IMG/VR virus record: IMGVR_UViG_2541046997_000001
Coordinates: 99,307-163,306 of that record
Length of the DNA: 64,000 nt
Source of the DNA: a virus
Taxonomy: Duplodnaviria > Heunggongvirae > Uroviricota > Caudoviricetes
Direction: 5' to 3' (one strand)
Below, one piece after another: positions 154 to 59,854 of this stretch; within the stretch, counting starts at the first letter, position 1; every line of letters starts with the position of its first letter. Under the pieces are notes generated by a model that searched no databases, was not told the origin of the DNA, and saw only the letters and a program-made list of their open reading frames with translations. The position numbers and the translations under genes are program-made.

Positions 154-1287
154 ATGTTAGTTGAAAAAGTCATAAAAATACCGGTATATACTTTCAATTT
201 TAGAATGTATCCGAATAAAGAGCAGAGTGAATTAATAGATAGAATTATTTTGGCTTTACATAAGGCTTGTAATATGGCTGTTTACGATATGTTTGAAAAT
301 AAAATTAACACAATTGAAAAACCAGACCAAAATAACGAAGGGCAAACCGTACATTTTCCGGATGTTAATTCCATGGCAAAGAAACAATATCTTGATGTAC
401 TAAGAAGTAGAAATGAAGATATTAAATTGATCCCGGCGGGTGCTTTGTCGGGTAAGAATGGTGTTTTCTTATCGGATCTATCTAAAAGATTAGATGCTCA
501 GGTAAGTGGAGAAAATGCTAATAAGAAAACAAATGGAAAAGGTGTTAAAAGACCGATTGAAAATAGTAAACCTCCGTATTATTCAAAGAAACATCCAAGA
601 ACTAGTTATACATATCAAGAAACCATGAGTAAAATGAGTTTCAGTGAAGAGAATAAAAACGTAGCATATTTTAATTTAGCTAAAATTGGCAAGGTAAAAA
701 TCAGAGGAATTAAAGGATACTTAAAAAATATCAGATTTGATTGTTTATGCGGAATGGATTTTGAAGAATATGCAAATTTACATAAAACACAACAAGTATT
801 AACAACTGTTAAAAAGGATAATTGCGGAGATTATTTTTTACAGTTGTGTTTAAAGGATGTTTATAAAATCGTAAAAGTTGAAGAAGAGAAAAAAGAAATA
901 GGAATTGATGTTGGTATTTCAACGTTAATGACTTTATCAGATGGTAGAAAATATGATAATCCTAGATTTAAAAATGGTAAAGATGGAAGTGTTCGACAAC
1001 ATCGAGAAATTTTAAATAGACAGTTATCCAGACGGCAAGGGTATAGCAATATAGAATTTCGAGAAAAATTGAGAGAATTAAGAAAAGAGGATATTAATTT
1101 AGAGCCGTCTAAAAGATACATAGAAACAAAAATTAAGAAAGCAAAATTAGAAAGAAAGGTAACCCGGCAAAGAAAGTATCATATGGAGAATATGGTATTG
1201 GAAGTTATAAGAAGATCGAACTTTATTGGAATAGAAACATTGTCGGTAAAGGATATGTATGTCAAGAAAAACAAGAGTGAGAAATGA
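154..1287 (+). CDS. tnpB: TnpB (IS605 OrfB-like RNA-guided nuclease), N-terminal 377-aa segment. The frame is broken at an A5 run near 1270-1285.
   Basis: Has TnpB-like N-terminus and central domain. The ORF ends inside the expected RuvC-II/zinc-finger linker. Confidence 0.8.
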   Translation: MLVEKVIKIPVYTFNFRMYPNKEQSELIDRIILALHKACNMAVYDMFENKINTIEKPDQNNEGQTVHFPDVNSMAKKQYLDVLRSRNEDIKLIPAGALSGKNGVFLSDLSKRLDAQVSGENANKKTNGKGVKRPIENSKPPYYSKKHPRTSYTYQETMSKMSFSEENKNVAYFNLAKIGKVKIRGIKGYLKNIRFDCLCGMDFEEYANLHKTQQVLTTVKKDNCGDYFLQLCLKDVYKIVKVEEEKKEIGIDVGISTLMTLSDGRKYDNPRFKNGKDGSVRQHREILNRQLSRRQGYSNIEFREKLRELRKEDINLEPSKRYIETKIKKAKLERKVTRQRKYHMENMVLEVIRRSNFIGIETLSVKDMYVKKNKSEK

Positions 1288-5940: not shown

Positions 5941-6360
5941 ATGCAAGAACTAAAGAAATGCCCGTTTTGTGGACATGAAATTGATGAACAAAAAGACTTA
6001 TATCTGCCTGAGAGAGATTGGCATCCAACATTTTATGACCCAGATAGCGGGGGCGACCCTATATACATACATTGTGAATGTGGATTAGAATTTTCGACAG
6101 GAACACATGATTATGCGGAATTTTTAGAAGCATGGAATAGGAGAGTGAAAGAAAAGAAATTATATACTTGTGAAATCTGCAATACGGATTATACCGATAA
6201 AGAAAAGGCTAAACAATGCGAAAAAGGGCATAAGATGTTAGAGAAAGCAACGCTTGTTACTGGTGTGTATAAACCTATTTCTATGCAACCTAGTGGAGAG
6301 CCTTATAAAATTCGTGTGAAATTTCCGGGAACAGATAAATTTATAGAATACAGAAGATAG
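5941..6360 (+). CDS. Double zinc-ribbon protein with a Lar-like N-terminus, a possible restriction-alleviation protein.
   Basis: N-terminal LKKCPFCGHEID resembles Lar-family proteins. A second CxxC...C pair sits in the middle. Confidence 0.4.
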   Translation: MQELKKCPFCGHEIDEQKDLYLPERDWHPTFYDPDSGGDPIYIHCECGLEFSTGTHDYAEFLEAWNRRVKEKKLYTCEICNTDYTDKEKAKQCEKGHKMLEKATLVTGVYKPISMQPSGEPYKIRVKFPGTDKFIEYRR

Positions 6361-6379: not shown

Positions 6380-6772
6380 ATGAACGTACTAGAGAAGATC
6401 TTGAAAGAGATAGAAGAGCGTGGTAATATCCAATTTTCATCATATACAAAACCATTAATTGCAGTTGAGGATGTTCTGGAAATCATCCGCTCTCACATGG
6501 ATGAAATCCCAAACTGTGAAGGATGCAGCAGGAGAAAGTGGTATCAAAAAGGATTTGAGGACGGAAAGAAAGATAACGACTGGATTCCGGTAGAAGAGAA
6601 GTTGCCGGAAAAAGAAGTGATTGCACAAAACGTATACAATGAAATGATGATTGGCTATGTATATTATTCAGAAGAAATGGAATGGTATGGATGTGAATCT
6701 GATGATGTTTATCTCAGTAATGTTGTAGCATGGCGGCCACTTCCGGAAACATATAAAAAGCACAGACAATAG
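6380..6772 (+). CDS. Hypothetical protein.
   Basis: ORF with RBS GGAGGTGG. Confidence 0.5.
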   Translation: MNVLEKILKEIEERGNIQFSSYTKPLIAVEDVLEIIRSHMDEIPNCEGCSRRKWYQKGFEDGKKDNDWIPVEEKLPEKEVIAQNVYNEMMIGYVYYSEEMEWYGCESDDVYLSNVVAWRPLPETYKKHRQ

Positions 6773-6915: not shown

Positions 6916-7449
6916 ATGAAAGTTTTAGTTGTAGTAGATATGCAAAATGATTTTGTTACAGGAAGTCTCGGAACAAAAGAAGCCAGAGAAATTGTTCCGA
7001 GTGTAAAGAAAAAAATTGAAAAGTATTTTAATAATGGCGAAGAAATTATTTTTACAAGAGATACTCATTATTCTAATTATTTAGACACTCAAGAAGGAAA
7101 AAATTTACCAGTTGAACATTGTATTCATGGCACGACGGGGTGGAATGTTTTAGAAGGGCTAGAAACTCCTAATTGCCATTATGTAGATAAAAATACATTT
7201 GGTTGGGATCAATGGAAAGAGACGTTAGGAAGGTCTAATTTTGATGAAGTAGAATTAATTGGAGTATGTACTGATATTTGTGTGGTATCAAATGCGTTAT
7301 TAATCAAGGCTTTATTTCCAGAAACTAAAATCACAGTTGATGCGTCATGTTGTGCAGGTGTCACTCCTGAAAAACACAAAGCTGCATTAGAAGTGATGAA
7401 ATCTTGTCAAATTAATGTGATTGGAGAGAAAACTTATGATCAAAATTAA
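6916..7449 (+). CDS. pncA: Nicotinamidase PncA (isochorismatase-family cysteine hydrolase).
   Basis: VVDMQNDF N-terminal motif, metal/substrate motif PVEHCIHGTTGW (PncA WPxHCVxGTxGA), and catalytic Cys in GVCTDICV. Confidence 0.8.
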   Translation: MKVLVVVDMQNDFVTGSLGTKEAREIVPSVKKKIEKYFNNGEEIIFTRDTHYSNYLDTQEGKNLPVEHCIHGTTGWNVLEGLETPNCHYVDKNTFGWDQWKETLGRSNFDEVELIGVCTDICVVSNALLIKALFPETKITVDASCCAGVTPEKHKAALEVMKSCQINVIGEKTYDQN

Positions 7450-8251
7450 TGGAGAAGTAGTAAATACAAAGAAATTCCCAGATGGGACTCTCTTGCTTAA
7501 AGAGGATGTTTCTTATGATTTTAAAAATTATAGAGAAGCAACTATTACATGGTTGTTTGAAAATAATGATGAATTGGTGACATTGATTTATATTGTCAAA
7601 CATCTTAATTCTCATGGTATTACAAATTTGTACTTGAATATGCCTTATATTCCAAACAGTCGTCAAGATCGTGTTAAAACAACAGAGGATGTATTTACAT
7701 TAAAATATTTTGCAGAAGTTATCAATTGGCTGAATTTTGATTCTGTAACAGTATTAGATCCGCATTCATCTGTAAGCGAAGCTCTTATTGATAAAATCGT
7801 AATTAAGCACCCGGACAGGTATGTGTGGGAAGCAATTGAAAGCAAATACATCGGCGGTACAAATAATCTCACAATGTTCTACCCGGACGAAGGAGCTATG
7901 AAACGTTATTCTACAATGTTTGATCTTCCTTATGCTTTTGGTATTAAAAAACGTGATTGGAAAACAGGTGAAATTAAAGGATTAGACGTTTCAGGTATGA
8001 CAGACTTAATCAAAGGAAGAAAGATTTTAATTGTAGACGATATTTCAAGTCGTGGTGGAACATTTTATCATTCAGCTATTAAGTTAAAAGAATTGGGAGC
8101 AAAGGAGATTTATCTATATGTGTCTCATTGTGAAAATACAATCCTCGAAGGAGAATTATTAAGTAGTGGATTAATCGACAGAGTGTTCACAACAAATAGT
8201 ATTTTTACTAAAGAACATGAGAAAGTAGAGGTATTTGAGTATGAAGAGTAA
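7421..8251 (+). CDS. Ribose-phosphate pyrophosphokinase (Prs)-like enzyme, candidate ADPR-pyrophosphate synthetase (Adps) of the NARP1 NAD+ reconstitution pathway. The likely start is ATG 7436.
   Basis: Prs motifs are present: MPYIPNSRQDR, LDPHS, PDEGA and the PRPP loop ILIVDDISSRGGT. The protein is shorter and diverged from housekeeping Prs and sits next to a NAMPT-family gene. Confidence 0.7.
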   Translation: MERKLMIKINGEVVNTKKFPDGTLLLKEDVSYDFKNYREATITWLFENNDELVTLIYIVKHLNSHGITNLYLNMPYIPNSRQDRVKTTEDVFTLKYFAEVINWLNFDSVTVLDPHSSVSEALIDKIVIKHPDRYVWEAIESKYIGGTNNLTMFYPDEGAMKRYSTMFDLPYAFGIKKRDWKTGEIKGLDVSGMTDLIKGRKILIVDDISSRGGTFYHSAIKLKELGAKEIYLYVSHCENTILEGELLSSGLIDRVFTTNSIFTKEHEKVEVFEYEE

Positions 8252-9725
8252 AACGAATCCTATGTTATTAATTGATTTTTATAAAGCAGTTCATGCTGAA
8301 ATGTTACCTAAAAATATTACAAAATCAGTTTCTTATTTTACACCTAGAATGAGTCGTGTAAAGCGGTGGGGCAAGGTAGTAATGTTTGGATTGCAGGGGT
8401 TCATTAAAACATATCTGATTGATTATTTTAATGAAGAATTCTTTGACAAGCCTTTTGAAGAAATTATTTATGAATATAAAAGAATCATGGATGCATCACT
8501 TGGAAAAGATACATATAAAATTGACAAAATTGAGAACCTACATAAATTAGGATATTTACCAATTGAAATTGTAGCATTACCAGAAGGTACAATTGTTCCG
8601 ATGCATGTTCCGATGTTTGGTATTACTAATACACATAAAGATTTTGCATGGCTTCCACAGGCACTCGAAAGTCTAGTTTCAGCAGAAATGTGGCATCCAA
8701 TGTTAGCTGCGACAGTTGGAAAGACATATCGTGACATTGTTAATTATTATTACGATTTAACATGTGATGATGGTATTCCAAAATCGAAAGCTCTTGGTGC
8801 ATTTGATTTCAGAGGAGAAGAGTGTTTAGAATCAGCGGTAAAAGCAGGAGCTGGGTGGTGCTTATCATTTTTAAATACAGCGACCGTTCCAACTATTCCT
8901 TATCTTGAGAAGAATTATTTTTGTGATTGTACAAAAGAAGATGTGGCATATGGAAGTCCGAGTACAGAACATTCGGTTATGTGTAGTAATTATGCAATTG
9001 ATGGAGATGAAATTACATTACTTAGAAGATTACTTACAGAAATTTATCCAAACACAAGTTTCTCTGCTGTTCTTGATTCATATGATTATTGGAATGTTAT
9101 CAATAATATTCTTCCACAATTAAAAACTGAGATTATGAATCATAATGGCTGTATGTTAATGCGCGGAGATTCTGGAGATTGCGTAGAAGTTGTAACAAAA
9201 ACGGTATTTAAATTATGGGATGAATTCGGAGGAACAATCAATAGCAAAGGCTACAAAGTATTAGATCCTCATGTAAAAGCAATTTACGGCGATTCAATTA
9301 CAGTACAGAGGTGCGAAGAAATTTACAAAATTCTTATGGAAAACGGATTTTCATGCTCTAATGTGGCATTGGGGGTTGGTTCGTTTTCGTTTCAGTGTAT
9401 TGAAGAAGACGGATTTTTAAAACCATTTACAAGAGATACTTTCAGTTCATGTATTAAAGCAACATATTGTGAAATTGACGGCAAGCCATTCCCAATTTTT
9501 AAAAATCCAAAAGATGGAGGATTTAAGAAATCCCAGAAAGGATGTTGTAGAGTATATACCCGATGCGATGGAAGCATTTATTATGAGGACGAGCTTACAT
9601 GGGAACAGGCTGTTAACTCTGGGAAACACGGAAATATGTTAATTCCGGTATTTAAAGACGGAGAGTTGTTAAAAGAACAATCGTTAAAAGAAATCAGAGA
9701 CAGGCTACATGGAGGTGAATTTTAA
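8235..9725 (+). CDS. NAMPT-family type II phosphoribosyltransferase, NadV-like. It may be the NARP1 nicotinamide ADPR transferase (Namat).
   Basis: LLIDFYKAVH matches the NAMPT DSYK motif. NITKSVSYFTPR, FGLQGFIKTYL, LPIEIVALPEG, GDSGD, KAIYGDSI and GVGSF all match NAMPT rather than PncB. Confidence 0.8.
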   Translation: MSMKSKTNPMLLIDFYKAVHAEMLPKNITKSVSYFTPRMSRVKRWGKVVMFGLQGFIKTYLIDYFNEEFFDKPFEEIIYEYKRIMDASLGKDTYKIDKIENLHKLGYLPIEIVALPEGTIVPMHVPMFGITNTHKDFAWLPQALESLVSAEMWHPMLAATVGKTYRDIVNYYYDLTCDDGIPKSKALGAFDFRGEECLESAVKAGAGWCLSFLNTATVPTIPYLEKNYFCDCTKEDVAYGSPSTEHSVMCSNYAIDGDEITLLRRLLTEIYPNTSFSAVLDSYDYWNVINNILPQLKTEIMNHNGCMLMRGDSGDCVEVVTKTVFKLWDEFGGTINSKGYKVLDPHVKAIYGDSITVQRCEEIYKILMENGFSCSNVALGVGSFSFQCIEEDGFLKPFTRDTFSSCIKATYCEIDGKPFPIFKNPKDGGFKKSQKGCCRVYTRCDGSIYYEDELTWEQAVNSGKHGNMLIPVFKDGELLKEQSLKEIRDRLHGGEF

Positions 9726-10240
9726 TGCCTATAAAAATTATCAATGGAGATTTGTTTCAATCAGATGCTCGAATCATCGCGCACCAGGTAAACTGTCAAA
9801 AGAAAATGGGATCAGGAGTTGCACTTCAGATTAAGAAGAAATATCCAAATGTATATAATGAGTACATAAAAGTATGTTCAGAAGAAATGATTGGAAAAAT
9901 TCAAGTTGTTCCTATTAATAGCAGATGGAATGGTTATAACACTGGTAGCATTATAATCCCTCAGAGCGAACAATTTATATGTAACATGTTCGCCCAAAAC
10001 AATTATGGATATGATGGTAAACAGTACACAAATATTAATGCATTAAGAAAATGCATGCAATCATTGAGGACTTTGACATTTCTAAAGAATGGGCATTATG
10101 GAAATAAAATTGCAATGCCATATAAAATTGGATGCTGTCGTGGTGGCGCAAATTGGGATGAGGTTTATAAAATGATTGAAGAAATTTTTTCAAACTGTGA
10201 TGTGGAATTATGGAGATTAGGAAAAGAGAGGCGAGATTGA
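9725..10240 (+). CDS. Macro-domain protein (ADP-ribose / ADP-ribose-1''-phosphate binding or hydrolysing).
   Basis: ARIIAHQVNCQKKMGSGVALQIKKKYP resembles the macro-domain core. It lies in the NAD/ADPR gene cluster. Confidence 0.55.
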   Translation: MPIKIINGDLFQSDARIIAHQVNCQKKMGSGVALQIKKKYPNVYNEYIKVCSEEMIGKIQVVPINSRWNGYNTGSIIIPQSEQFICNMFAQNNYGYDGKQYTNINALRKCMQSLRTLTFLKNGHYGNKIAMPYKIGCCRGGANWDEVYKMIEEIFSNCDVELWRLGKERRD

Positions 10241-10241
10241 A

Positions 10242-10991
10242 ATGAATTTTAATGCAAATGAAATTAAAACTGAAATTATTGAATGGATCCAGAAGTTCTT
10301 TAAAGAGAACGGGTGTGGTTGTAAAGCAGTTGTTGGTATTTCAGGAGGAAAGGATTCTACGATTGTTGCTGCACTCTGCATTGAAGCTCTAGGAAAAGAA
10401 AGAGTACTTGGAGTCCTAATGCCAAACGGTAAACAAAAAGATATCGATGTTGCAAAGAAGGTGGTTAGTCATCTCGGAATTGAAAGTATTGAAGTAAATA
10501 TTTTTAATGCAGTGCGTGATATTAAGCATGAAGTGAAGTCCGAATTAAATGATCACTGGAGCAAACAGTCTTCTATCAATCTACCAGCGCGAGTTAGAAT
10601 GGCTACATTATATGCCGTGTCTCAGACTGTAAATGGAAGAGTCGCGAATACATGTAATTTATCTGAAGATTGGATTGGATATAGTACGAGATGGGGAGAT
10701 AGTGTTGGTGATTTCAGCCCATTGTCTAATTTGACTGTTACAGAAGTTAAAGAAGTCGGATATGCACTTGGTCTTCCGAAAGAGTTAATTGAGAAAATTC
10801 CATCAGATGGTCTTTGTGATAAAACAGATGAAGATAATTTAGGATTTACATATGAAGTTCTCGACAAATATATCAGAACAGGTGTAATTAAAGATAAACA
10901 ATTAAAGAAGAAAATTGACCAGATGCACGAAAAGAATTTATTTAAATTACAAATGATGCCATCATTTAGCTTTGATAAAAGCAAGAAATAA
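10242..10991 (+). CDS. nadE: NH3-dependent NAD+ synthetase NadE.
   Basis: PP-loop VVGISGGKDS. NadE-like ...YSTRWGDSVGDFSPLSNLTVTEVKEVGYALGLP. Confidence 0.85.
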   Translation: MNFNANEIKTEIIEWIQKFFKENGCGCKAVVGISGGKDSTIVAALCIEALGKERVLGVLMPNGKQKDIDVAKKVVSHLGIESIEVNIFNAVRDIKHEVKSELNDHWSKQSSINLPARVRMATLYAVSQTVNGRVANTCNLSEDWIGYSTRWGDSVGDFSPLSNLTVTEVKEVGYALGLPKELIEKIPSDGLCDKTDEDNLGFTYEVLDKYIRTGVIKDKQLKKKIDQMHEKNLFKLQMMPSFSFDKSKK

Positions 10992-11834: not shown

Positions 11835-12653
11835 ATGGACAATAGCAATTTAGCGAAGAGAATGAAACAGTATGAAACTGTTTCAAAATCAACTTTAGTA
11901 AGACGTATGCCAGTAATTATTAGGCTTGACGGCAGATCATTTCATACATTTACAAAGGGATTTAAAAGACCATTTGATGATGTATTGGTCAAAACAATGC
12001 AGGAGACTATGAAATATCTTTGCGAGAATATTCAAGGTTGTGTATTGGGATATACGCAGTCTGATGAAATTACTCTTGTATTGGTAGATTATAAAAATTT
12101 AGATTCTCAATCTTGGTTTGATAATGAAGTGCAGAAGATATGTAGTATTGCAGCAAGTATGGCAACTATGGCTTTTAATAAAAATTTTGAACTTTTTTCT
12201 TTGACGATGAGATTAGAAGACTCTGTAGAAAGTAATAAACTTGGTGCAGTATATAAACAAGCAATGAATAAAGGTGCAATGTTTGATGCAAGATGTTTCA
12301 ATATTCCAAAAGAAGAAGTAACTAATAATATTTACTGGAGACAACTTGATGCAACGAGAAATTCTATTCAAATGGTAGGACAAGCTAATTTTTCACATAA
12401 AGAATTACAGAATAAATCATGCAACCAAATTCAAGATATGTTGTTTACACAAAAGGGAATTAATTGGAATGACATTTCTATATATTTAAAAAGAGGAAGT
12501 TGCTGCATTAGAGAGAATTATATTTTTGAAAATTCAAACCTAAATGGAGAGATGTGTGTAGAACGAACTCGTTGGATAATCGACAAAGAAATCCCTATTT
12601 TTAAGGGTGAGAGTAGAGAATATATTGATAGATTGGTATATGTAGGAGAATAA
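11835..12653 (+). CDS. Thg1-like protein (tRNA-His guanylyltransferase family, 3'-5' nucleotidyltransferase for tRNA 5'-end repair).
   Basis: N-terminal MPVIIRLDGRSFHTFTKGF...QSDEITLVL matches the Thg1/TLP catalytic palm motifs. Confidence 0.7.
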   Translation: MDNSNLAKRMKQYETVSKSTLVRRMPVIIRLDGRSFHTFTKGFKRPFDDVLVKTMQETMKYLCENIQGCVLGYTQSDEITLVLVDYKNLDSQSWFDNEVQKICSIAASMATMAFNKNFELFSLTMRLEDSVESNKLGAVYKQAMNKGAMFDARCFNIPKEEVTNNIYWRQLDATRNSIQMVGQANFSHKELQNKSCNQIQDMLFTQKGINWNDISIYLKRGSCCIRENYIFENSNLNGEMCVERTRWIIDKEIPIFKGESREYIDRLVYVGE

Positions 12654-34892: not shown

Positions 34893-35921
34893 ATGAATTT
34901 GAAACAAATTAAAGAAACGATAGAGAAACAAGAATATGATTTCTTAAAAGAGAATGAGCACTTAGGTAACAATATTATTTTACTTACGCTTGGCGGTAGC
35001 CACGCATATGGAATGGATAAAGAAGACAGTGATTTAGACGTAAGAGGAGTTGCACTAAATAGCAAAGAGGAAATTCTTCTTGGAAAAGACTTTGAACAGG
35101 TTGTAGAGATTGATACAGATACAACAGTTTATTCATTCAACAAAATTTTACAATTGTTAAAATCAAATAATCCCAACACTATTGAAATTTTAGGATGTAA
35201 ACCTGAACATTATTTATATTTGTCTGATGTTGGAAGAGAATTATTGAATAATAGAAAAATGTTCTTATCCAAGATTTGTATTAATTCTTTTGCAGGATAC
35301 GCTTCAAGTCAATTAAGGCGTATGGAGAACAAAGCTGCTAGATTAGTTGGACAGGCACAAAACGAAGAGTACATTTTAAAATCAATCAATAATGCAAGCT
35401 ATGACTTTAAAAACCGTTACTTCCCAATGAATGATGGATCACTCAATCTTTATACAGATAAAGCAGTGCAGGAAGGTTATGACACTGAAATTTTTATGGA
35501 TATTGATTTAAAGCATTATCCGCTAAGAGATTGGACTGGTATGTGGAATGAGATGAAGGCTATTGTAAGTAGTTATAACAAAATTGGTAGGCGAAACGAA
35601 AAAGCAATGAACAAGGACAAACTTGGAAAGCATATGGCTCATTTGATCAGATTATACATGATGTGTATTGACATTCTTGAAAAAGAAGAAATCATTACTT
35701 ATCGAGAAAACGAACATGATTTACTTATGAGCATACGAAACGGAGAATATTTAGATAATAACAGACAGCCAATCTCTTCATTTTATGACTTACTAAATGA
35801 ATATGAAAAACGATTCGATTACGCTAAAGAAAATACTTCGTTGCCAAATGTGCCGGACTACAAGAGAATCGAAGAGTTTAAAATGTATGTAAATGAACGA
35901 ATTGTGAAAGGAGATATTTAA
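34893..35921 (+). CDS. Predicted nucleotidyltransferase (Pol-beta-superfamily NTase fold).
   Basis: GGSHAYGMDKEDSDLDVRGV matches the GS-x9-13-[DE]h[DE]h NTase signature. Confidence 0.5.
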   Translation: MNLKQIKETIEKQEYDFLKENEHLGNNIILLTLGGSHAYGMDKEDSDLDVRGVALNSKEEILLGKDFEQVVEIDTDTTVYSFNKILQLLKSNNPNTIEILGCKPEHYLYLSDVGRELLNNRKMFLSKICINSFAGYASSQLRRMENKAARLVGQAQNEEYILKSINNASYDFKNRYFPMNDGSLNLYTDKAVQEGYDTEIFMDIDLKHYPLRDWTGMWNEMKAIVSSYNKIGRRNEKAMNKDKLGKHMAHLIRLYMMCIDILEKEEIITYRENEHDLLMSIRNGEYLDNNRQPISSFYDLLNEYEKRFDYAKENTSLPNVPDYKRIEEFKMYVNERIVKGDI

Positions 35922-53270: not shown

Positions 53271-53483
53271 TTGATTACAACTACGAGACAAGCTATTGCA
53301 GCTTTACAGAAAATTGAAAAAGAAAGTGGAGAAAAATTTTTAGTAGTAGTAGATGATTATGACAATGAGTATCAGATTGAATATGTTAAAAGACATAATT
53401 TACATTCTGATAATCCATATGATTTTTGTCATGCTCTAAAAATTAAAGGAAACCATATGGGTTGTATTAAAAGAGGTGTTTAA
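53271..53483 (+). CDS. Hypothetical protein.
   Basis: ORF only. Confidence 0.4.
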   Translation: MITTTRQAIAALQKIEKESGEKFLVVVDDYDNEYQIEYVKRHNLHSDNPYDFCHALKIKGNHMGCIKRGV

Positions 53484-54327
53484 TATGAAGTCGTGCAAAG
53501 AATATGCTAGTGAATGCAAAGAGCAATTAAAAAAAGCAATTGAAATAAAGAAGAGATTGTTATACAGACAACCTGTCTTGGCGGTCGTACAGATTGGGGA
53601 TGATGCGGCGAGTTCTTCTTATATAAAAGGAAAGCTTAAAGATTGTGAAGATGTTGGAATGGTTTGTAAACACATTCATTTAGAAGAAAATGAAAATGAT
53701 ACATATAGTGTCTCGAAGATTTTATTAGAACTAAGTGAAGATGTTGATTATGACGGGATTATTCTTCAACTTCCTATTCCTGATAAATTCGACTTACTTG
53801 TTTTACAAAATTGTATCTCACCAGAAAAAGATGTGGATGGATTTAGAAAAGATAGTATGTTTGATCCATGCACTCCAAAAGGAGTTATTGGTTGGTTAGA
53901 CAATAACAAATATGATTATGAAGGCAAAAAAGCAATTGTAATCGGGAGAAGTAATATCGTAGGAAAACCACTCGTTAATATGCTTATCGAAAAAGGAGCT
54001 ACGGTTACAAGTTGTAACAGTATGACTAAAGATTTAAAAGATTACACAGGTAATGCGGATTTAATTATTTCAGCTATCGGGAAACCTAAATATTTTTCAA
54101 GTTCATATTTTTACACAAATCAAGTAATTGTAGATGTAGGAATTAATAGAGATGAAAATGGGAAATTGTGTGGGGACATTGATTATGATGATGTTCGTAG
54201 ATGGGGGAATACATATGTGACACCTGTTCCGGGTGGAGTAGGTTTGCTTACGAGAGTAGCATTGCTACAAAACACATTTGAAGCTTACCGAAGAAAAATT
54301 GAAGGAGAATTATTGTATGAAAATTAA
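53476..54327 (+). CDS. folD: Bifunctional methylene-THF dehydrogenase / methenyl-THF cyclohydrolase FolD.
   Basis: LAVVQIGDDAASSSYIKGK, IGRSNIVGKP and PVPGGVGLLT motifs. Confidence 0.85.
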   Translation: MFNMKSCKEYASECKEQLKKAIEIKKRLLYRQPVLAVVQIGDDAASSSYIKGKLKDCEDVGMVCKHIHLEENENDTYSVSKILLELSEDVDYDGIILQLPIPDKFDLLVLQNCISPEKDVDGFRKDSMFDPCTPKGVIGWLDNNKYDYEGKKAIVIGRSNIVGKPLVNMLIEKGATVTSCNSMTKDLKDYTGNADLIISAIGKPKYFSSSYFYTNQVIVDVGINRDENGKLCGDIDYDDVRRWGNTYVTPVPGGVGLLTRVALLQNTFEAYRRKIEGELLYEN

Positions 54328-55860: not shown

Positions 55861-58083
55861 TTGAAGGTAATTAAAAGAGATGGTAGAACGGTAGAATTTA
55901 ACAAGGACAAGATTAAAAACGCTATTTTGAAAGCATACAATGATATAGATAAAAATAGCGAAAATAATAATGCAAAGGCAAAGGCTTCAGAAATCGCCAA
56001 TCATATTTCCAATATGGGCAAAGATATGTGTGTTGAGGATATTCAGGATATTGTAGAAGAAAAACTTATGGCTTCCAACAGAAAAGATGTGGCAAGGGCA
56101 TATATTTTATATAGGAATAATCGAACAAAAATTCGTGAAAATAAAACGCAGCTTATGAAAGAAATTTCAGAGAAGCTTATGGCATCAAATGTCCAGAATC
56201 AAAATGCAAATGTTGATGAAAAATCTTTTGGAGGCAGGATTGGCGAAGCAAGTGATGCTGTACTAAAAAAATATGCATTAGATAATTGTATGTCTGAAAT
56301 GGCAAAAGAAAATCATATTAATAATGAAATTTATATTCATGATTTAAATAGCTATGCAATTGGAATGCATAACTGCTTAAGCATTCCGTTTGACAAACTA
56401 CTTGCAAGAGGATTTAATACCAGACAAACAGACGTTAGACCAGCAAATTCTGTAAATACTGCATTTCAATTGGTCGCAGTGATTTTTCAATTACAATCAC
56501 TCATGCAGTTTGGCGGAGTATCTGCAACACACATTGATTGGACAATGGTTCCATATGTTAGAAAGAGTTTTAGAAAGCATTATATTAATGGATTAAAATA
56601 TATCGAAGAGATCAATGATGCAAATCTTTTTAATCATATTCCAGAAGATGCCGGGATTGAAGATGGAGAATATAAACTTTATGATAAAGCATTCGAGTAT
56701 GCAATGGATATGACTGAAAAAGAAGTGTATCAAGCCGTAGAAGGCTTATACCATAATCTAAATACGCTTCAATCACGTTCTGGTAATCAACTCCCATTTA
56801 CTTCTATCAATTATGGAACTTGTACATTGCCTGAAGGAAGAATGGTTATTAAGGCGTTGCTAGAAGTTTCTATTAATGGTATTGGGAAATTACATAAAAC
56901 ATCTGTTTTCCCATGCGGAATTTTTCAATGTATGAATGGTGTAAATAGAAAACCAGGTGAACCAAATTATGATTTATTTAAATTGGCATTACGATCAACG
57001 GCACAAAGGTTGTATCCGAACTATGCTAATGTGGATTGGAGTGGAAATGAAGGGTACGACAAAAACGACCCGAAAACATATTTTAGTACAATGGGTTGTA
57101 GAACAGCAAACGGATGGGATATTAATGGATTTGGACAATTAAAAGATGGTAGAGGTAATATTTGTCCGGTAACGATTATTTTGCCAACATTAGCTATGAA
57201 AGCAAAAGAACTTGCAAATCAGTGGAGTGTTGAACCAAACAAAGCAACCGAAAGCGATGTAATTGATTCTTTTATGGGATTATTGGAAGAAAAAATTTAT
57301 GAAGCTAAAGATATGTTAATTGAAAGATTTCAGTTAATTTGTCAACAATCATCTGATTCAGCAAAGTTCATGTATGAAAATGGAGTTATGGAAGGTTATG
57401 ATGGAAAGAATATTTACTCCGCACTAAAACATGGAACGCTCGCAGTAGGACAACTTGGTTTAGCAGAAACACTTCAAATTCTGATTGGGTGTGATCATAC
57501 AACAAAAAAAGGAATGGATCTTGCTAAACAGATCGAACAATTATTTAAAGATAAATGTTCAGATTTTAAGGAAGAATATTCTCTTAACTTTGGGGTTTAC
57601 TATACTCCGGCAGAAAATTTATGCTTTACAGCAATGAAGAAATTCAAAGAAAAATACGGCGTAATTCCAAATGTGTCAGATAAAGAATTTTTTACGAATA
57701 GCATTCATGTTCCTGTTTGGAAATCTATGACACCTATGGAAAAGATTGACATTGAATCACAATTAACTGGATATAGTTCTGCTGGTTGTATTACATATGT
57801 AGAACTTGAAGGAAGTGTAAAAAACAACATCGACGCATTAGAGACGATTGTTAATTACGCAATGGACAAAGATATTCCATATTTTGCAGTCAACGTACCA
57901 AACGATATGTGTACCAATTGTGGATATTGTGATGATATTAATAATACATGTCCTATGTGCGGATGTGGAGAAATCAGAAGATTGCGAAGAGTAACCGGGT
58001 ACTTAACAGGAGATTATAAAACAGCATTTAATATTGGAAAACAACAAGAAGTTGAAATGCGTGTGAAACATCAGAAATTTTAA
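55861..58083 (+). CDS. nrdD: Anaerobic ribonucleoside-triphosphate reductase NrdD (class III RNR). It starts with TTG.
   Basis: N-terminal ATP cone (VIKRDGRTVEFNKDKI), C-terminal zinc ribbon CTNCG...CPMCGC, and glycyl-radical motif RRVTGYL. Confidence 0.9.
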   Translation: MKVIKRDGRTVEFNKDKIKNAILKAYNDIDKNSENNNAKAKASEIANHISNMGKDMCVEDIQDIVEEKLMASNRKDVARAYILYRNNRTKIRENKTQLMKEISEKLMASNVQNQNANVDEKSFGGRIGEASDAVLKKYALDNCMSEMAKENHINNEIYIHDLNSYAIGMHNCLSIPFDKLLARGFNTRQTDVRPANSVNTAFQLVAVIFQLQSLMQFGGVSATHIDWTMVPYVRKSFRKHYINGLKYIEEINDANLFNHIPEDAGIEDGEYKLYDKAFEYAMDMTEKEVYQAVEGLYHNLNTLQSRSGNQLPFTSINYGTCTLPEGRMVIKALLEVSINGIGKLHKTSVFPCGIFQCMNGVNRKPGEPNYDLFKLALRSTAQRLYPNYANVDWSGNEGYDKNDPKTYFSTMGCRTANGWDINGFGQLKDGRGNICPVTIILPTLAMKAKELANQWSVEPNKATESDVIDSFMGLLEEKIYEAKDMLIERFQLICQQSSDSAKFMYENGVMEGYDGKNIYSALKHGTLAVGQLGLAETLQILIGCDHTTKKGMDLAKQIEQLFKDKCSDFKEEYSLNFGVYYTPAENLCFTAMKKFKEKYGVIPNVSDKEFFTNSIHVPVWKSMTPMEKIDIESQLTGYSSAGCITYVELEGSVKNNIDALETIVNYAMDKDIPYFAVNVPNDMCTNCGYCDDINNTCPMCGCGEIRRLRRVTGYLTGDYKTAFNIGKQQEVEMRVKHQKF

Positions 58084-59209: not shown

Positions 59210-59854
59210 GTGAATTATTTGAAAATAGAAAAAGAAAATGTTTTAAACGGGTTTGGCATTCGTGTTGTTTTATGGTGTTCTGGATGTGATCATCACTGTC
59301 GGAATTGTCAGAATCCTATTACTTGGAATCCGAATGACGGAGTTCAATTTGACGAATCGGCAAAAAAAGAAATATTAGATGAGTTGTCTAAAGACTATAT
59401 TTCCGGTATTACATTTACTGGTGGCGATCCATTATATTCACAAAACCTTAAAGACGTTTTGGATTTGATTACAGATTTACGTTCAAAATATCCAATAAGT
59501 AGAAAAATAGATACAATATATAGAGAAAATGATAACTTCAAATACAATATATTGATTAAAAACTCAGATGAAATCCGTCTTTCATGTCAAGAAAAAACAA
59601 TCTGGTTATATTCCGGATATACATGGGAACAGATTATGTATCCAGTTGTTACAGACGATTTTAATCCCGAACGAGACAAAATTTTAAAAATGCGTCAAGA
59701 CATTGTGAAACAGTGTGATGTACTTGTAGATGGAAGATATGAAGAAGACAAACGAGATGTTACATATCATTGGGCTGGCAGCACAAACCAAAGAGTCATT
59801 GACGTGCAAGAAACGTTAAAACAAGGAAAGGTGATCTTGTGGGAGAATCAGTAA
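59210..59854 (+). CDS. nrdG: Anaerobic RNR activating protein NrdG (radical SAM).
   Basis: CSGCDHHCRNC cluster motif and ITFTGGDPL. Confidence 0.85.
   Translation: MNYLKIEKENVLNGFGIRVVLWCSGCDHHCRNCQNPITWNPNDGVQFDESAKKEILDELSKDYISGITFTGGDPLYSQNLKDVLDLITDLRSKYPISRKIDTIYRENDNFKYNILIKNSDEIRLSCQEKTIWLYSGYTWEQIMYPVVTDDFNPERDKILKMRQDIVKQCDVLVDGRYEEDKRDVTYHWAGSTNQRVIDVQETLKQGKVILWENQ

What the first reader, a model, noticed from the sequence alone, without database searches (positions are those of the whole stretch)
6916..10991. Phage NAD+ island: PncA, Prs-like (candidate Adps), NAMPT-like (candidate Namat or NadV), macro domain, NadE
Five consecutive genes encode a nicotinamidase, a diverged ribose-phosphate pyrophosphokinase homolog, a NAMPT-family transferase, a macro-domain protein and NAD synthetase. 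A Prs-homolog next to a NAMPT-homolog is the architecture of the NAD+ reconstitution pathway NARP1 (ADPR-PP synthetase plus nicotinamide ADPR transferase), which phages use to rebuild NAD+ from ADPR and nicotinamide after NAD-depleting defences such as Thoeris, DSR or SIR2. In this island the pair sits inside a larger module that also carries the Preiss-Handler end enzymes (PncA, NadE) and an ADPR-handling macro domain. This suggests a multi-route NAD+ and ADP-ribose counter-defence cassette that is broader than the two-gene systems described so far. The roles of PncA (which consumes nicotinamide) and of the macro domain (ADPR-1''-P or ADP-ribosyl removal) are not obvious and are worth testing.
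Basis: partly seen in the sequence, partly recalled or inferred. Interest (0 to 1): 0.75.

Follow-up and report, generated by a model that had tools for sequence, protein, structure and literature searches.

The report
Nicotinate-type phage NAD+ rebuilding operon
This gut-phage operon belongs to the known NARP1 family that rebuilds NAD+ after bacterial defences destroy it, but sequence evidence suggests an undescribed four-enzyme version that works through nicotinic acid instead of nicotinamide, plus an optional, already-known phosphatase add-on.

Summary
The five ORFs exist as reported and form one tightly packed + strand operon. The Prs-like and NAMPT-like proteins are NARP1 relatives, 45% and 44% identical to the characterised SPbetaL1 Adps and Namat. 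The macro protein is a homolog of Adpp, the ADPR-1''-phosphate phosphatase of the already published NARP1-AP extension.

The new part is PncA and NadE. Across about 220 related loci from three collections they are the conserved partners, in the order PncA-Adps-Namat-NadE. Macro is an optional cassette flanked by a 13-bp repeat.

Every Namat linked to PncA/NadE has lost the Asp that binds the nicotinamide amide (SPbetaL1 D215, human NAMPT D219, the substrate-specificity residue). It is Ala or Ser, and A242S, H187G and S239G accompany it. Every Asp-type Namat examined lacks PncA and NadE. The adenine-clamp residues and the Adps motifs are retained.

Best reading, a deamidated NARP1:
- PncA: nicotinamide to nicotinate.
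- Adps: ADPR to ADPR-PP.
- Remodelled Namat: ADPR-PP plus nicotinate to NaAD.
- NadE: NaAD to NAD+.

No paper in the searchable library describes this. All activities are inferred from sequence.

The parts
6916..7449 (+). PncA-type nicotinamidase, 177 aa. Predicted reaction: nicotinamide to nicotinate plus NH3.
   Evidence: PF00857 E=1.6e-28. The best solved relative is P. horikoshii pyrazinamidase/nicotinamidase 1im5. Residues aligned to its catalytic and metal sites are present: D8, K92, Cys in TDIC, and D49/H51/H68. A homolog is present in nearly all Ala/Ser215-class loci.
7436..8251 (+). Adps homolog (ADPR-pyrophosphate synthetase), 272 aa from ATG 7436. The ORF opens at TTG 7421.
   Evidence: 45% identical to the characterised SPbetaL1 Adps. 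PHROG 619 E=2e-69. Below the cut-offs of all NCBIfam Prs models. Best true Prs in the PDB scores only 61 bits. It carries Adps-type motifs (DDISSRGGT, KKRDWKTGEI, HCEN) where B. subtilis Prs has DDIIDTAGT, DKRRPRPN, THPV.
8235..9725 (+). Namat-like transferase with a remodelled base pocket, 496 aa. Predicted nicotinate ADPR transferase: ADPR-PP plus nicotinate to NaAD.
   Evidence: 390 bits to the SPbetaL1 Namat structures 9w5w/9w5x and about 149 bits to human NAMPT. The catalytic core is kept. Pocket residues are changed.
8880..8882 (+). Codon for Ala216, which replaces SPbetaL1 Namat D215 (human NAMPT D219), the Asp that hydrogen-bonds the nicotinamide amide.
   Evidence: Alignments. This position is Ala or Ser in every PncA/NadE-linked homolog and Asp or Glu in every homolog without them.
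8961..8963 (+). Codon for Ser243, which replaces SPbetaL1 A242 (human A244), another residue of the nicotinamide pocket.
   Evidence: Ser in all Ala/Ser215-class proteins and Ala in all Asp-class proteins.
9378..9437 (+). Selectivity-clamp helix motif GSFSFQ-C-IEEDGFLKP-FTRD. The position-3 aromatic (F384) and TRD are kept. Position 7 is Cys, and there is a 9-residue insertion (9399-9425) relative to the canonical GSx.x.x.TRD.
   Evidence: The motif definition comes from PMC12774641.
9725..10240 (+). Macro-domain Adpp homolog, 171 aa. Predicted ADPR-1''-phosphate phosphatase. This is an optional cassette.
   Evidence: 27% identical over its full length to the characterised Vibrio phage Gary Adpp (E=9e-12). 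E=1e-16 to another NARP1-linked macro protein. Poa1p, DarG and TARG1 are the closest solved relatives. Gln sits at the position of the DarG Lys. The gene is absent from 99%-identical relatives L007 and L037.
9716..9728 (+). Left copy of the 13-bp direct repeat TGAATTTTAATGC that brackets the macro gene.
   Evidence: two exact copies in the window, 0.02 expected by chance.
10243..10255 (+). Right copy of the 13-bp direct repeat TGAATTTTAATGC.
   Evidence: The junction in the macro-less relatives is consistent with loss or gain between the two copies.
10242..10991 (+). Single-domain NH3-dependent NAD+ synthetase NadE, 249 aa. Predicted reaction: NaAD plus NH3 plus ATP to NAD+.
   Evidence: PF02540 E=4.6e-54. 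TIGR00552 scores 183.8 bits against a cut-off of 63.65. All best solved relatives are NH3-dependent NAD synthetases. A homolog is present in nearly all Ala/Ser215-class loci.

Best explanation
The operon is a NARP1-family NAD+ reconstitution module that runs through the deamidated pyridine. When a host defence NADase splits NAD+ into ADP-ribose and nicotinamide, four steps follow:
1. PncA deamidates nicotinamide to nicotinate and releases NH3.
2. Adps pyrophosphorylates ADP-ribose to ADPR-PP, using ATP.
3. The Namat-like enzyme joins nicotinate to ADPR-PP and so makes nicotinate adenine dinucleotide (NaAD) directly. Its adenine clamp is kept, but its nicotinamide-amide site has been remodelled (Asp to Ala, Ala to Ser, His to Gly, Ser to Gly).
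4. NadE amidates NaAD to NAD+, using NH3 and ATP.

The macro protein (Adpp) is an optional front end. It converts ADPR-1''-phosphate, the product of RES-type NAD+ phosphorolysis, into ADP-ribose, as in NARP1-AP.

Shown here: gene content, homology, residue states, synteny and covariation. Inferred: every enzymatic activity, and the anti-defence role.
For: 1. NARP1 ancestry. Adps is 45% identical to SPbetaL1 Adps, which acts on ADPR and gave no measurable product in the Prs-type assay. Namat is 44% identical to SPbetaL1 Namat, at 390 bits against about 149 bits for human NAMPT.

2. Pocket change. SPbetaL1 D215 hydrogen-bonds nicotinamide, and D215A lowers NAD+ synthesis 8-fold. Its human equivalent D219 defines NAMPT substrate specificity. 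D219S is listed as 'switch the substrate affinity' and D219A as 'loss of activity'. The window has Ala there.

3. Covariation.
- IMG/VR relatives of the window: 76 of 77 have Ala215 and all 77 have Ser242, and nearly all sit in PncA-Adps-Namat-NadE.
- IMG/VR relatives of SPbetaL1: 37 loci with Asp/Glu215 plus Ala242 have no PncA and no NadE. All 15 loci with Ala/Ser215 plus Ser242 have NadE, and 14 of them have PncA.
- Dereplicated at 90% identity: 26 of 27 against 0 of 20, Fisher p=2e-12.
- Genome collection: 80 of 80 have Ala215/Ser242, and 48 of 52 well-flanked loci carry the four-gene module.
- Phass-1 lineage, about 31% identical to the window protein: Phass-1 and its 11 relatives all show the same pocket changes and the four genes.

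4. Focus of the change. Only 9 of about 490 columns separate the two classes. Four of them map to human H191, G217, D219 and A244, which are known pocket positions.

5. ADPR-PP use is probably kept. R40 and F392 are invariant in the class. The R40A/F392G double mutant loses ADPR-PP-driven NAD+ synthesis but keeps PRPP chemistry. The Phass-1 lineage keeps a fully canonical clamp, GAYTYQYVTRD. Adps motifs do not differ between the classes.

6. No PncB or NadD/NMNAT in the window. PncA keeps its catalytic and metal residues. NadE is the NH3-dependent type.

7. NadE and PncA are rare in phages overall: 51 and 14 of 50,697 records, against 2,044 records with a Namat/Nampt homolog.
Against: - No biochemistry exists for this clade. 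The nicotinate preference is inferred from a residue whose role was shown in human NAMPT and SPbetaL1 Namat, and I read this in a review table and a structural paper, not in the original 2006 study.
- The Ala/Ser215 class is essentially one deep clade plus the Phass-1 lineage. The perfect association therefore reflects only one to three evolutionary events, and the Fisher p-value overstates independence.
- In the window clade the clamp is altered (Tyr396 to Cys plus a 9-residue insertion), so ADPR-PP use is not guaranteed.
- A few loci lack PncA or NadE (L023; 4 of 52), so host enzymes can apparently substitute.
- Absence of PncA or NadE was scored only within about 7 kb and by tblastn at E<=1e-4.
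- Why a phage would prefer the longer, more ATP-costly route is unexplained.
Confidence: 0.55

Rival explanations
1. Canonical NARP1-AP plus independent helpers. The Namat-like enzyme still joins nicotinamide to ADPR-PP. PncA and NadE work separately and boost the host's own Preiss-Handler salvage through host PncB and NadD. The operon would then provide two parallel routes.
For: All five families are present. SPbetaL1 D215A retains some activity, about 8-fold lower. Hosts normally carry PncB, NadD and NadE (established knowledge of the Preiss-Handler pathway). A few loci lack PncA or NadE.
Against: The nicotinamide-binding Asp is lost in every PncA/NadE-linked Namat and kept in every other one, and three further pocket residues change with it. 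A phage-encoded PncA would compete with a nicotinamide-using Namat for its substrate. The fixed PncA-Adps-Namat-NadE order across deep divergence argues for one pathway.
Confidence: 0.13
2. A PRPP-based Preiss-Handler shortcut. The Prs-like protein is a true PRPP synthetase. The NAMPT-like protein has become a nicotinate phosphoribosyltransferase that makes NaMN. Host NadD makes NaAD, and phage NadE finishes the synthesis. ADP-ribose is not a substrate.
For: The pocket change fits nicotinate use equally well in this model. SPbetaL1 Namat can use PRPP in vitro. The window-clade clamp is altered at position 7 and carries an insertion. NCBIfam names the protein family 'nicotinate phosphoribosyltransferase'.
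Against: The Prs-like protein sits with Adps, not Prs. It is 45% identical to SPbetaL1 Adps, scores below all Prs cut-offs, and carries Adps-type motifs that are identical in both classes. Clamp residues R40 and F392 are needed for ADPR-PP but not for PRPP chemistry, and they are invariant. The Phass-1 lineage has a fully canonical clamp. An ADPR-1''-P phosphatase in the operon makes sense only if ADP-ribose is the substrate.
Confidence: 0.15
3. A general NAD+-boosting auxiliary metabolic module with no link to defence. It would raise NAD+ in NAD-limited anaerobic hosts during replication of a large phage.
For: The window is a nucleotide-metabolism and replication region containing NrdD/NrdG, FolD, Pol III alpha and a PAPS-reductase-like protein. 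No defence context was tested.
Against: NARP1 chemistry starts from ADP-ribose, which is reported to be scarce unless an NADase has acted. The presence/absence polymorphism of Adpp between near-identical phages is typical of arms-race genes. Homologous operons are experimentally anti-defence.
Confidence: 0.1

Closest known systems
NARP1 (Adps + Namat; Osterman et al. 2024, bioRxiv 10.1101/2024.02.11.579819)
   Same: An adjacent Adps homolog and Namat homolog, 45% and 44% identical to the characterised SPbetaL1 pair. The catalytic core is kept (F189, R192, H245, R306, D308 equivalents), as are clamp residues R40, F392, T398, R399 and D400. It is phage-encoded.
   Different: The nicotinamide-amide-binding Asp215 is Ala and A242 is Ser. 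H187 and S239 are Gly. The clamp has Cys at position 7 and a 9-residue insertion. The pair is always embedded between a nicotinamidase and an NAD synthetase, which canonical NARP1 loci lack.
NARP1-AP (Adps + macro-domain Adpp + Namat; Osterman et al. 2026, bioRxiv 10.64898/2026.01.28.702374)
   Same: A macro-domain protein homologous to the tested Gary Adpp lies inside the operon. It is an optional accessory, reported in 15% of NARP1 phages there and found in a minority of loci here.
   Different: The gene order is Namat-macro-NadE, not Adps-macro-Namat. Identity to Gary Adpp is only 27%. It accompanies the PncA/NadE variant and not the canonical pair.
Preiss-Handler NAD+ salvage (PncA, PncB, NadD, NadE)
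   Same: The first enzyme (PncA) and the last (NadE) are present, with intact catalytic signatures.
   Different: The middle enzymes PncB and NadD are absent from the window. An Adps/Namat pair stands between PncA and NadE, and it could bypass both by making NaAD in one transfer.
Human NAMPT D219S substrate-switch mutant (Khan et al. 2006, as cited in PMC4919578 and PMC7096376)
   Same: The same position is changed to Ser or Ala. Neighbouring pocket positions H191, G217 and A244 are also changed.
   Different: This is a natural, fixed state in a phage clade, in a Namat (ADPR-PP) background and not a PRPP enzyme. Its activity has not been measured.
NARP2 (Nampt + Nmnat) and NARP3 (PnuC + NadR)
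   Same: All are phage pathways that restore NAD+.
   Different: There is no Nmnat, NadR or PnuC in the window. The transferase is much closer to Namat than to Nampt.

Membership tests
NARP1 | A Prs-family protein of the Adps clade encoded next to a Namat homolog | tested here: met
   The genes are adjacent and overlapping. 45% identity to SPbetaL1 Adps, against 61 bits to the best true Prs. Adps-type motifs are present.
NARP1 | Conserved Nampt-like catalytic core in Namat (F189, R192, catalytic His, R306, D308) | tested here: met
   F190, R193, H246, R310 and the following Asp are conserved.
NARP1 | Nicotinamide recognition by Asp215 in the Namat pocket | tested here: not met
   Ala216 in the window. 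Ala or Ser in all PncA/NadE-linked homologs.
NARP1 | Selectivity-clamp helix motif GSx.x.x.TRD with aromatics at positions 3 and 7, plus a stacking Arg/Lys/Tyr in the clamp loop | tested here: inconclusive
   Position 3 (Phe), the loop Arg and TRD are kept. Position 7 is Cys, followed by a 9-residue insertion. The Phass-1 lineage meets the motif fully.
NARP1 | Activities: ADPR plus ATP to ADPR-PP, and ADPR-PP plus nicotinamide to NAD+ | not testable with these tools
   This needs purified proteins and LC-MS.
NARP1-AP | A Poa1p-like macro-domain protein (Adpp) encoded within the NARP1 operon | tested here: met
   The macro ORF lies between Namat and NadE. Full-length homology to Gary Adpp, E=9e-12. 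Poa1p is among the solved relatives.
NARP1-AP | ADPR-1''-phosphate phosphatase activity and rescue from aRES | not testable with these tools
   This needs an enzyme assay and a plaque assay.
DarG-type DNA ADP-ribosyl glycohydrolase (anti-DarT) | A catalytic Lys in the PTKKHW segment of the macro domain. The residue's identity is from my memory of the DarG literature. | tested here: not met
   The window has AQNNY at this position, so Gln aligns with the Lys. The NCBIfam DarG model scores 69 bits against a cut-off of 250.
NARP2 | A Nampt-clade transferase plus an Nmnat in the same genome, with no Adps | tested here: not met
   Adps is present. No ORF in the 64-kb window has the (H/T)xGH nucleotidyltransferase motif. 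The rest of the genome was not seen.
Complete Preiss-Handler pathway | PncA, PncB (NAPRTase), NadD and NadE all encoded | tested here: not met
   PncA and NadE are present. No PncB or NadD was detected in the window.

The most novel reading that the evidence does not exclude
This would be a previously undescribed phage NAD+ reconstitution pathway, a 'deamido-NARP1'. Its key step would be a new enzymatic reaction: a nicotinate ADP-ribose transferase that forms NaAD directly from ADPR-PP and nicotinate. A phage nicotinamidase would feed that step and a phage NAD synthetase would complete it. The module is widespread in large phages associated with gut and rumen Clostridia.
Probability: 0.5. Interest if true: 0.85.

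Novelty: new variant of a known kind. Interest (0 to 1): 0.78.

Why it matters
NAD+ depletion is one of the most common bacterial anti-phage strategies, and NARP1 is the main known phage answer to it. If this reading holds, four things follow:
- It adds a fourth biochemical solution beside NARP1, NARP2 and NARP3.
- It predicts a new enzyme activity, making NaAD from ADPR-PP and nicotinate.
- It gives a simple sequence rule, Asp versus Ala/Ser at one pocket position, for telling the two kinds of Namat apart in annotation pipelines. At present those pipelines would call all of them NARP1 or 'nicotinate/nicotinamide phosphoribosyltransferase'.
- It shows that phages of gut Clostridia, which are poorly represented among cultured phages, use a different route from the Bacillus, E. 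coli and Vibrio models.

It also offers a natural experiment on how NAMPT-family enzymes switch their pyridine substrate.

Tried and rejected
- Megablast of the island against 50,697 phage records found nothing. Protein-level searches were needed.
- NARP3 was checked as a possible prior description. It is PnuC plus NadR and is unrelated.
- Full-text searches found no prior description. There was no paper with NARP1 plus NadE or NARP1 plus nicotinamidase, and NARP1 plus nicotinic acid returned only the NARP3 paper. The Iyer/Aravind 2022 survey does not mention NadE, PncA or nicotinamidase.
- The macro protein as a DarG-like DNA de-ADP-ribosylase was rejected. Gln sits at the Lys position, and the protein is closer to the Adpp set.
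- A hidden NadD or NMNAT in the window was ruled out. No ORF has the (H/T)xGH motif in a plausible context.
- An attempt to Pfam-scan the whole window as concatenated ORFs was abandoned because the printed sequences were truncated. Ten large ORFs were scanned instead.
- The ARAGORN tRNA-Ile hit inside the Namat ORF was judged a false positive.
- The 139-aa protein occupying the macro position in the Phass-1 lineage was tested as a possible HAD phosphatase. It has no Pfam hit and only a weak match to a PDB 'hypothetical protein', so this is unresolved.
- Structure prediction was not run. At 44% identity to a solved Namat the residue mapping is unambiguous, and the tools cannot dock ligands.

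Full report
OBSERVATION.
- 6916-7449: isochorismatase-fold nicotinamidase (PF00857, 1.6e-28).
- 7436-8251: Prs-family protein (PHROG 619, 2e-69). It scores below the curated cut-off of every NCBIfam ribose-phosphate diphosphokinase model.
- 8235-9725: NAMPT-family protein (PHROG 448, 1.5e-156).
- 9725-10240: macro domain (PF01661, 1.8e-6; PHROG 335 'phosphatase', 1.5e-39).
- 10242-10991: single-domain NAD synthetase (PF02540, 4.6e-54).
The genes overlap or abut, and a good ribosome-binding site precedes the first ATG. This is one operon. A simple promoter/terminator scan found no more sites than shuffled sequence gives and was not informative.

WHAT THE CORE PAIR IS.
The Prs-like protein's best annotated phage relative is the SPbetaL1 protein, at 45% identity. 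Osterman et al. purified that protein and showed that it pyrophosphorylates ADP-ribose and gives no measurable product in the Prs-type assay. The best true Prs in the PDB reaches only 61 bits.

The NAMPT-like protein scores 390 bits against 9w5w/9w5x and about 149 bits against human NAMPT. I confirmed that 9w5x is identical in sequence to the SPbetaL1 gene product, so these are the Namat crystal structures. The pair is therefore a NARP1-type Adps/Namat pair and not Prs/NadV.

THE MACRO GENE IS ALREADY EXPLAINED.
A January 2026 preprint showed that 15% of NARP1 phages carry a Poa1p-like macro protein, Adpp, in the operon. Adpp dephosphorylates ADPR-1''-phosphate, the product of RES-domain (aRES) NAD+ phosphorolysis, so that NARP1 can use it. 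The extended pathway is called NARP1-AP.
- The window's macro protein aligns over its full length with the tested Vibrio phage Gary Adpp (27% identity, E=9e-12). The Gary sequence came from that paper's Table S1.
- It also aligns with another NARP1-linked macro protein (E=1e-16).
- It shares the AHQxNC, (A/G)QxNYGYDG and IGCxxGGxW segments with them.
- It has Gln where the DarG macro domain has the Lys of PTKKHW, and it scores far below the DarG model cut-off. An anti-DarT role is therefore unlikely.

PncA AND NadE ARE THE CONSERVED PARTNERS; MACRO IS THE ACCESSORY.
NadE and PncA-like genes are rare in sequenced phages: 51 and 14 of 50,697 records. Adps/Prs homologs are found in 1,454 records and Namat/Nampt homologs in 2,044. 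The close hits are human-gut phage contigs and Phage Phass-1.
- MT835544, whose Namat is 62% and Adps 45% identical to the window's, has Adps-(small ORF)-Namat-macro-NadE-PncA.
- Phass-1 has PncA-Adps-Namat-(139-aa ORF)-NadE.
- 74 IMG/VR loci have Namat 73-99% identical to the window's. Nearly all show PncA-Adps-Namat-[macro]-NadE, while Adps, PncA and NadE have diverged to 38-70% identity.
- In 80 loci from GTDB species genomes, 48 of the 52 with enough flank carry PncA-Adps-Namat-NadE and only 2 carry macro. These are mostly Lachnospiraceae, Ruminococcus and other Clostridia MAGs, plus isolates such as Pseudoruminococcus massiliensis and Filifactor villosus.
- Macro is missing from phages whose Namat is 99% identical to the window's (L007, L037). 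In the window it is bracketed by an exact 13-bp direct repeat at 9716-9728 and 10243-10255, with 0.02 copies expected by chance. It behaves as a gain/loss cassette.

THE KEY FINDING: A REMODELLED BASE POCKET THAT TRACKS PncA/NadE.
In the SPbetaL1 Namat structures, nicotinamide is held by F189, R192, D215, A242 and R306, with D13' and Y15' from the partner subunit. D215 makes the hydrogen bond to nicotinamide, and D215A lowers NAD+ synthesis about 8-fold. The human equivalent, D219, is described as fundamental in defining NAMPT substrate specificity. D219S is listed as switching substrate affinity and D219A as losing activity (the residue mapping is confirmed).

The window protein has Ala at this position (A216, codon 8880-8882) and Ser in place of A242 (S243, 8961-8963). 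The pattern is absolute in every set examined:
- Window relatives: 76 of 77 have Ala215 (one is truncated) and 77 of 77 have Ser242.
- Loci retrieved independently with SPbetaL1 Namat: the 37 with Asp/Glu215 plus Ala242 have Adps where the locus is not truncated, but never PncA or NadE within 7 kb. The 15 with Ala or Ser215 plus Ser242 all have NadE, and 14 have PncA. The exception is a 9-kb contig.
- Genome collection: 80 of 80 have Ala215/Ser242.
- After dereplication at 90% identity the table is 26 of 27 against 0 of 20, Fisher p=2e-12.
- Only 9 of about 490 alignment columns cleanly separate the classes. They are SPbetaL1 positions 97, 172, 185, 187, 213, 215, 239, 242 and 304. H187, G213, D215 and A242 correspond to human H191, G217, D219 and A244, which are known nicotinamide/inhibitor-pocket positions.

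The change is therefore concentrated on the part of the enzyme that reads the amide group.

IS ADPR-PP STILL THE OTHER SUBSTRATE?
Probably. Lan et al. showed that the adenine clamp (R40 in the loop; F392 and Y396 in the helix motif GSx.x.x.TRD) is needed for ADPR-PP-driven NAD+ synthesis but not for PRPP chemistry. R40A/F392G is the most damaging combination.
- R40 and F392 are invariant in the Ala215 class.
- T398, R399 and D400 are invariant in the window's viral relatives.
- The window clade does carry Cys at the Y396 position and a 9-residue insertion (IEEDGFLKP, 9399-9425), so its clamp is a variant.
- The Phass-1 lineage (Phass-1 plus 11 further loci) is about 31% identical to the window protein. 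It has the same four pocket changes (G187, A215, G239, S242) and the same four-gene module, and it keeps a fully canonical clamp, GAYTYQYVTRD.
- The partner Adps proteins of the two classes share all the motifs that set Adps apart from Prs. They differ consistently at only one column.
- An ADPR-1''-P phosphatase in the operon makes sense only if ADP-ribose is the input.

THE FLANKING ENZYMES LOOK ACTIVE.
PncA aligns best to the P. horikoshii nicotinamidase. It keeps the Asp/Lys/Cys catalytic residues and the Asp/His/His metal site. NadE's best solved relatives are all NH3-dependent NAD synthetases. No PncB and no NadD/NMNAT-type nucleotidyltransferase is encoded in the 64-kb window.

MECHANISM PROPOSED.
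A defence NADase yields ADP-ribose plus nicotinamide. An RES enzyme instead yields ADPR-1''-P, which Adpp converts to ADP-ribose. The steps then are:
1. PncA converts nicotinamide to nicotinate plus NH3.
2. Adps makes ADPR-PP.
3. The remodelled Namat transfers nicotinate onto ADPR-PP and so gives NaAD.
4. NadE uses NH3 and ATP to give NAD+.

This bypasses PncB and NadD in a single transfer. The NH3 released in the first step is what the last step needs.

Why a phage would take the longer route is speculation on my part. Possible reasons:
- The extra ATP-driven, irreversible step.
- Hosts whose own PncA quickly removes nicotinamide.
- Better retention of the charged nicotinate in the cell.
- NaAD being a poorer substrate for the defence NADase.
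None of these was tested.

RIVALS.
(a) Canonical NARP1-AP plus independent boosters of host Preiss-Handler salvage. This does not explain the strict loss of the amide-binding Asp, and the phage PncA would compete with its own Namat for nicotinamide.
(b) A PRPP route, with a true Prs, a nicotinate phosphoribosyltransferase, host NadD and phage NadE. It fits the pocket change. It does not fit the Adps-type partner, the conserved adenine clamp or the Adpp gene.
(c) A general metabolic booster. This is possible but is not favoured by the arms-race-like macro polymorphism or by the experimental anti-defence role of homologous operons.

CAVEATS.
- The Ala/Ser215 proteins form one deep clade plus the Phass-1 branch in a neighbour-joining tree. 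The covariation rests on very few independent events, and the p-value overstates independence. What is informative is that the association survives divergence down to about 31-41% identity, gene-order changes (PncA upstream or downstream), and repeated gain or loss of macro.
- Loci were retrieved by peptide-pattern scans, which is not an exhaustive survey.
- Absence of a gene was scored within about 7 kb only.
- The D219S evidence comes from reviews, not the primary paper.
- MAG taxonomy of large phage-like contigs is an unreliable guide to host.
- All activities are inferred.

PRIOR KNOWLEDGE AND NOVELTY.
NARP1, NARP1-AP, NARP2, NARP3 and the RyDEP add-on are published. In the searchable library no paper combines NARP1 with NadE or with nicotinamidase, and the only paper combining it with nicotinic acid is the NARP3 paper. 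That August 2026 paper compares only NARP1, NARP2 and NARP3. I therefore rate the island as a new variant of a known kind. The Adps/Namat/Adpp part is known. The PncA-Namat(Ala215)-NadE logic and the predicted NaAD-forming transfer are not.

CONTEXT.
The window is a one-strand early/metabolic region of a large phage. Close relatives lie on 100-170-kb contigs. It contains an IS605 OrfB-type transposase, a C5 DNA methylase, a PAPS-reductase-like protein, RlaP, a DnaB-like helicase, Pol III alpha, FolD and anaerobic ribonucleotide reductase NrdD/NrdG. This is consistent with an anaerobic Clostridia host.

Noticed in passing
window 9716-9728 and 10243-10255: An exact 13-bp direct repeat, TGAATTTTAATGC, brackets the macro gene. 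It spans the Namat stop/macro start junction and the start of NadE. Relatives whose Namat is 99% identical lack exactly this gene. This suggests gain or loss by short-homology recombination.
   Followed up: yes
window 9330-9399: ARAGORN calls a tRNA-Ile (anticodon AAT) inside the Namat-like coding sequence, on the same strand. It is probably a false positive, since it lies in a conserved ORF and has an unusual anticodon.
   Followed up: partly
L003 5784-6203 (Phage Phass-1, minus strand) and L213-L217: In the Phass-1 lineage a 139-aa protein sits between Namat and NadE, where the window has macro. It contains a DxDxT-like segment (FDFDDTV) reminiscent of HAD phosphatases. It has no Pfam hit and only a weak match to PDB 2obb, a 'hypothetical protein' (E=4e-4). 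It could be a non-homologous substitute for Adpp.
   Followed up: partly
L119-L124 (IMG/VR): One sub-lineage of the PncA/NadE-linked Namat has Ser, not Ala, at the D215 position. That is the same change as the human D219S substrate-switch mutant. Its clamp insertion is also different (GAFCFSAVIEPDGHMVVVTRD).
   Followed up: partly
window 5941-6360 and 6380-6772: Just upstream of the operon lie a Lar-like restriction-alleviation protein (PF14354, 1.2e-8) and a DUF551 protein. Another candidate counter-defence gene therefore sits next to the NAD+ module.
   Followed up: no
window 11835-12653 and 34893-35921: A Thg1-like tRNA-His guanylyltransferase (PF04446, 1.3e-33; PHROG 4717, 6.5e-91) lies downstream of the operon. 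An RlaP RNA-repair nucleotidyltransferase (PF10127, 3.8e-21) lies further on. They may form a phage tRNA/RNA repair toolkit.
   Followed up: no
window 154-1287: An IS605 OrfB-type (TnpB-like) transposase ORF (PF01385, 5.5e-13) sits at the start of the window, inside a phage genome.
   Followed up: no
window 53476-54327, 55861-58083, 59210-59854: FolD (methylene-THF dehydrogenase/cyclohydrolase), anaerobic ribonucleotide reductase NrdD and its radical-SAM activase are encoded here. They point to an anaerobic host and to heavy investment in nucleotide supply.
   Followed up: partly
L003 (Phage Phass-1, OQ749652.1): The most divergent carrier of the four-gene module belongs to the TAG-recoded 'code 15' phage clade and encodes a suppressor tRNA-Sup-CTA. 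The module therefore crosses phage lineages with different genetic codes.
   Followed up: no
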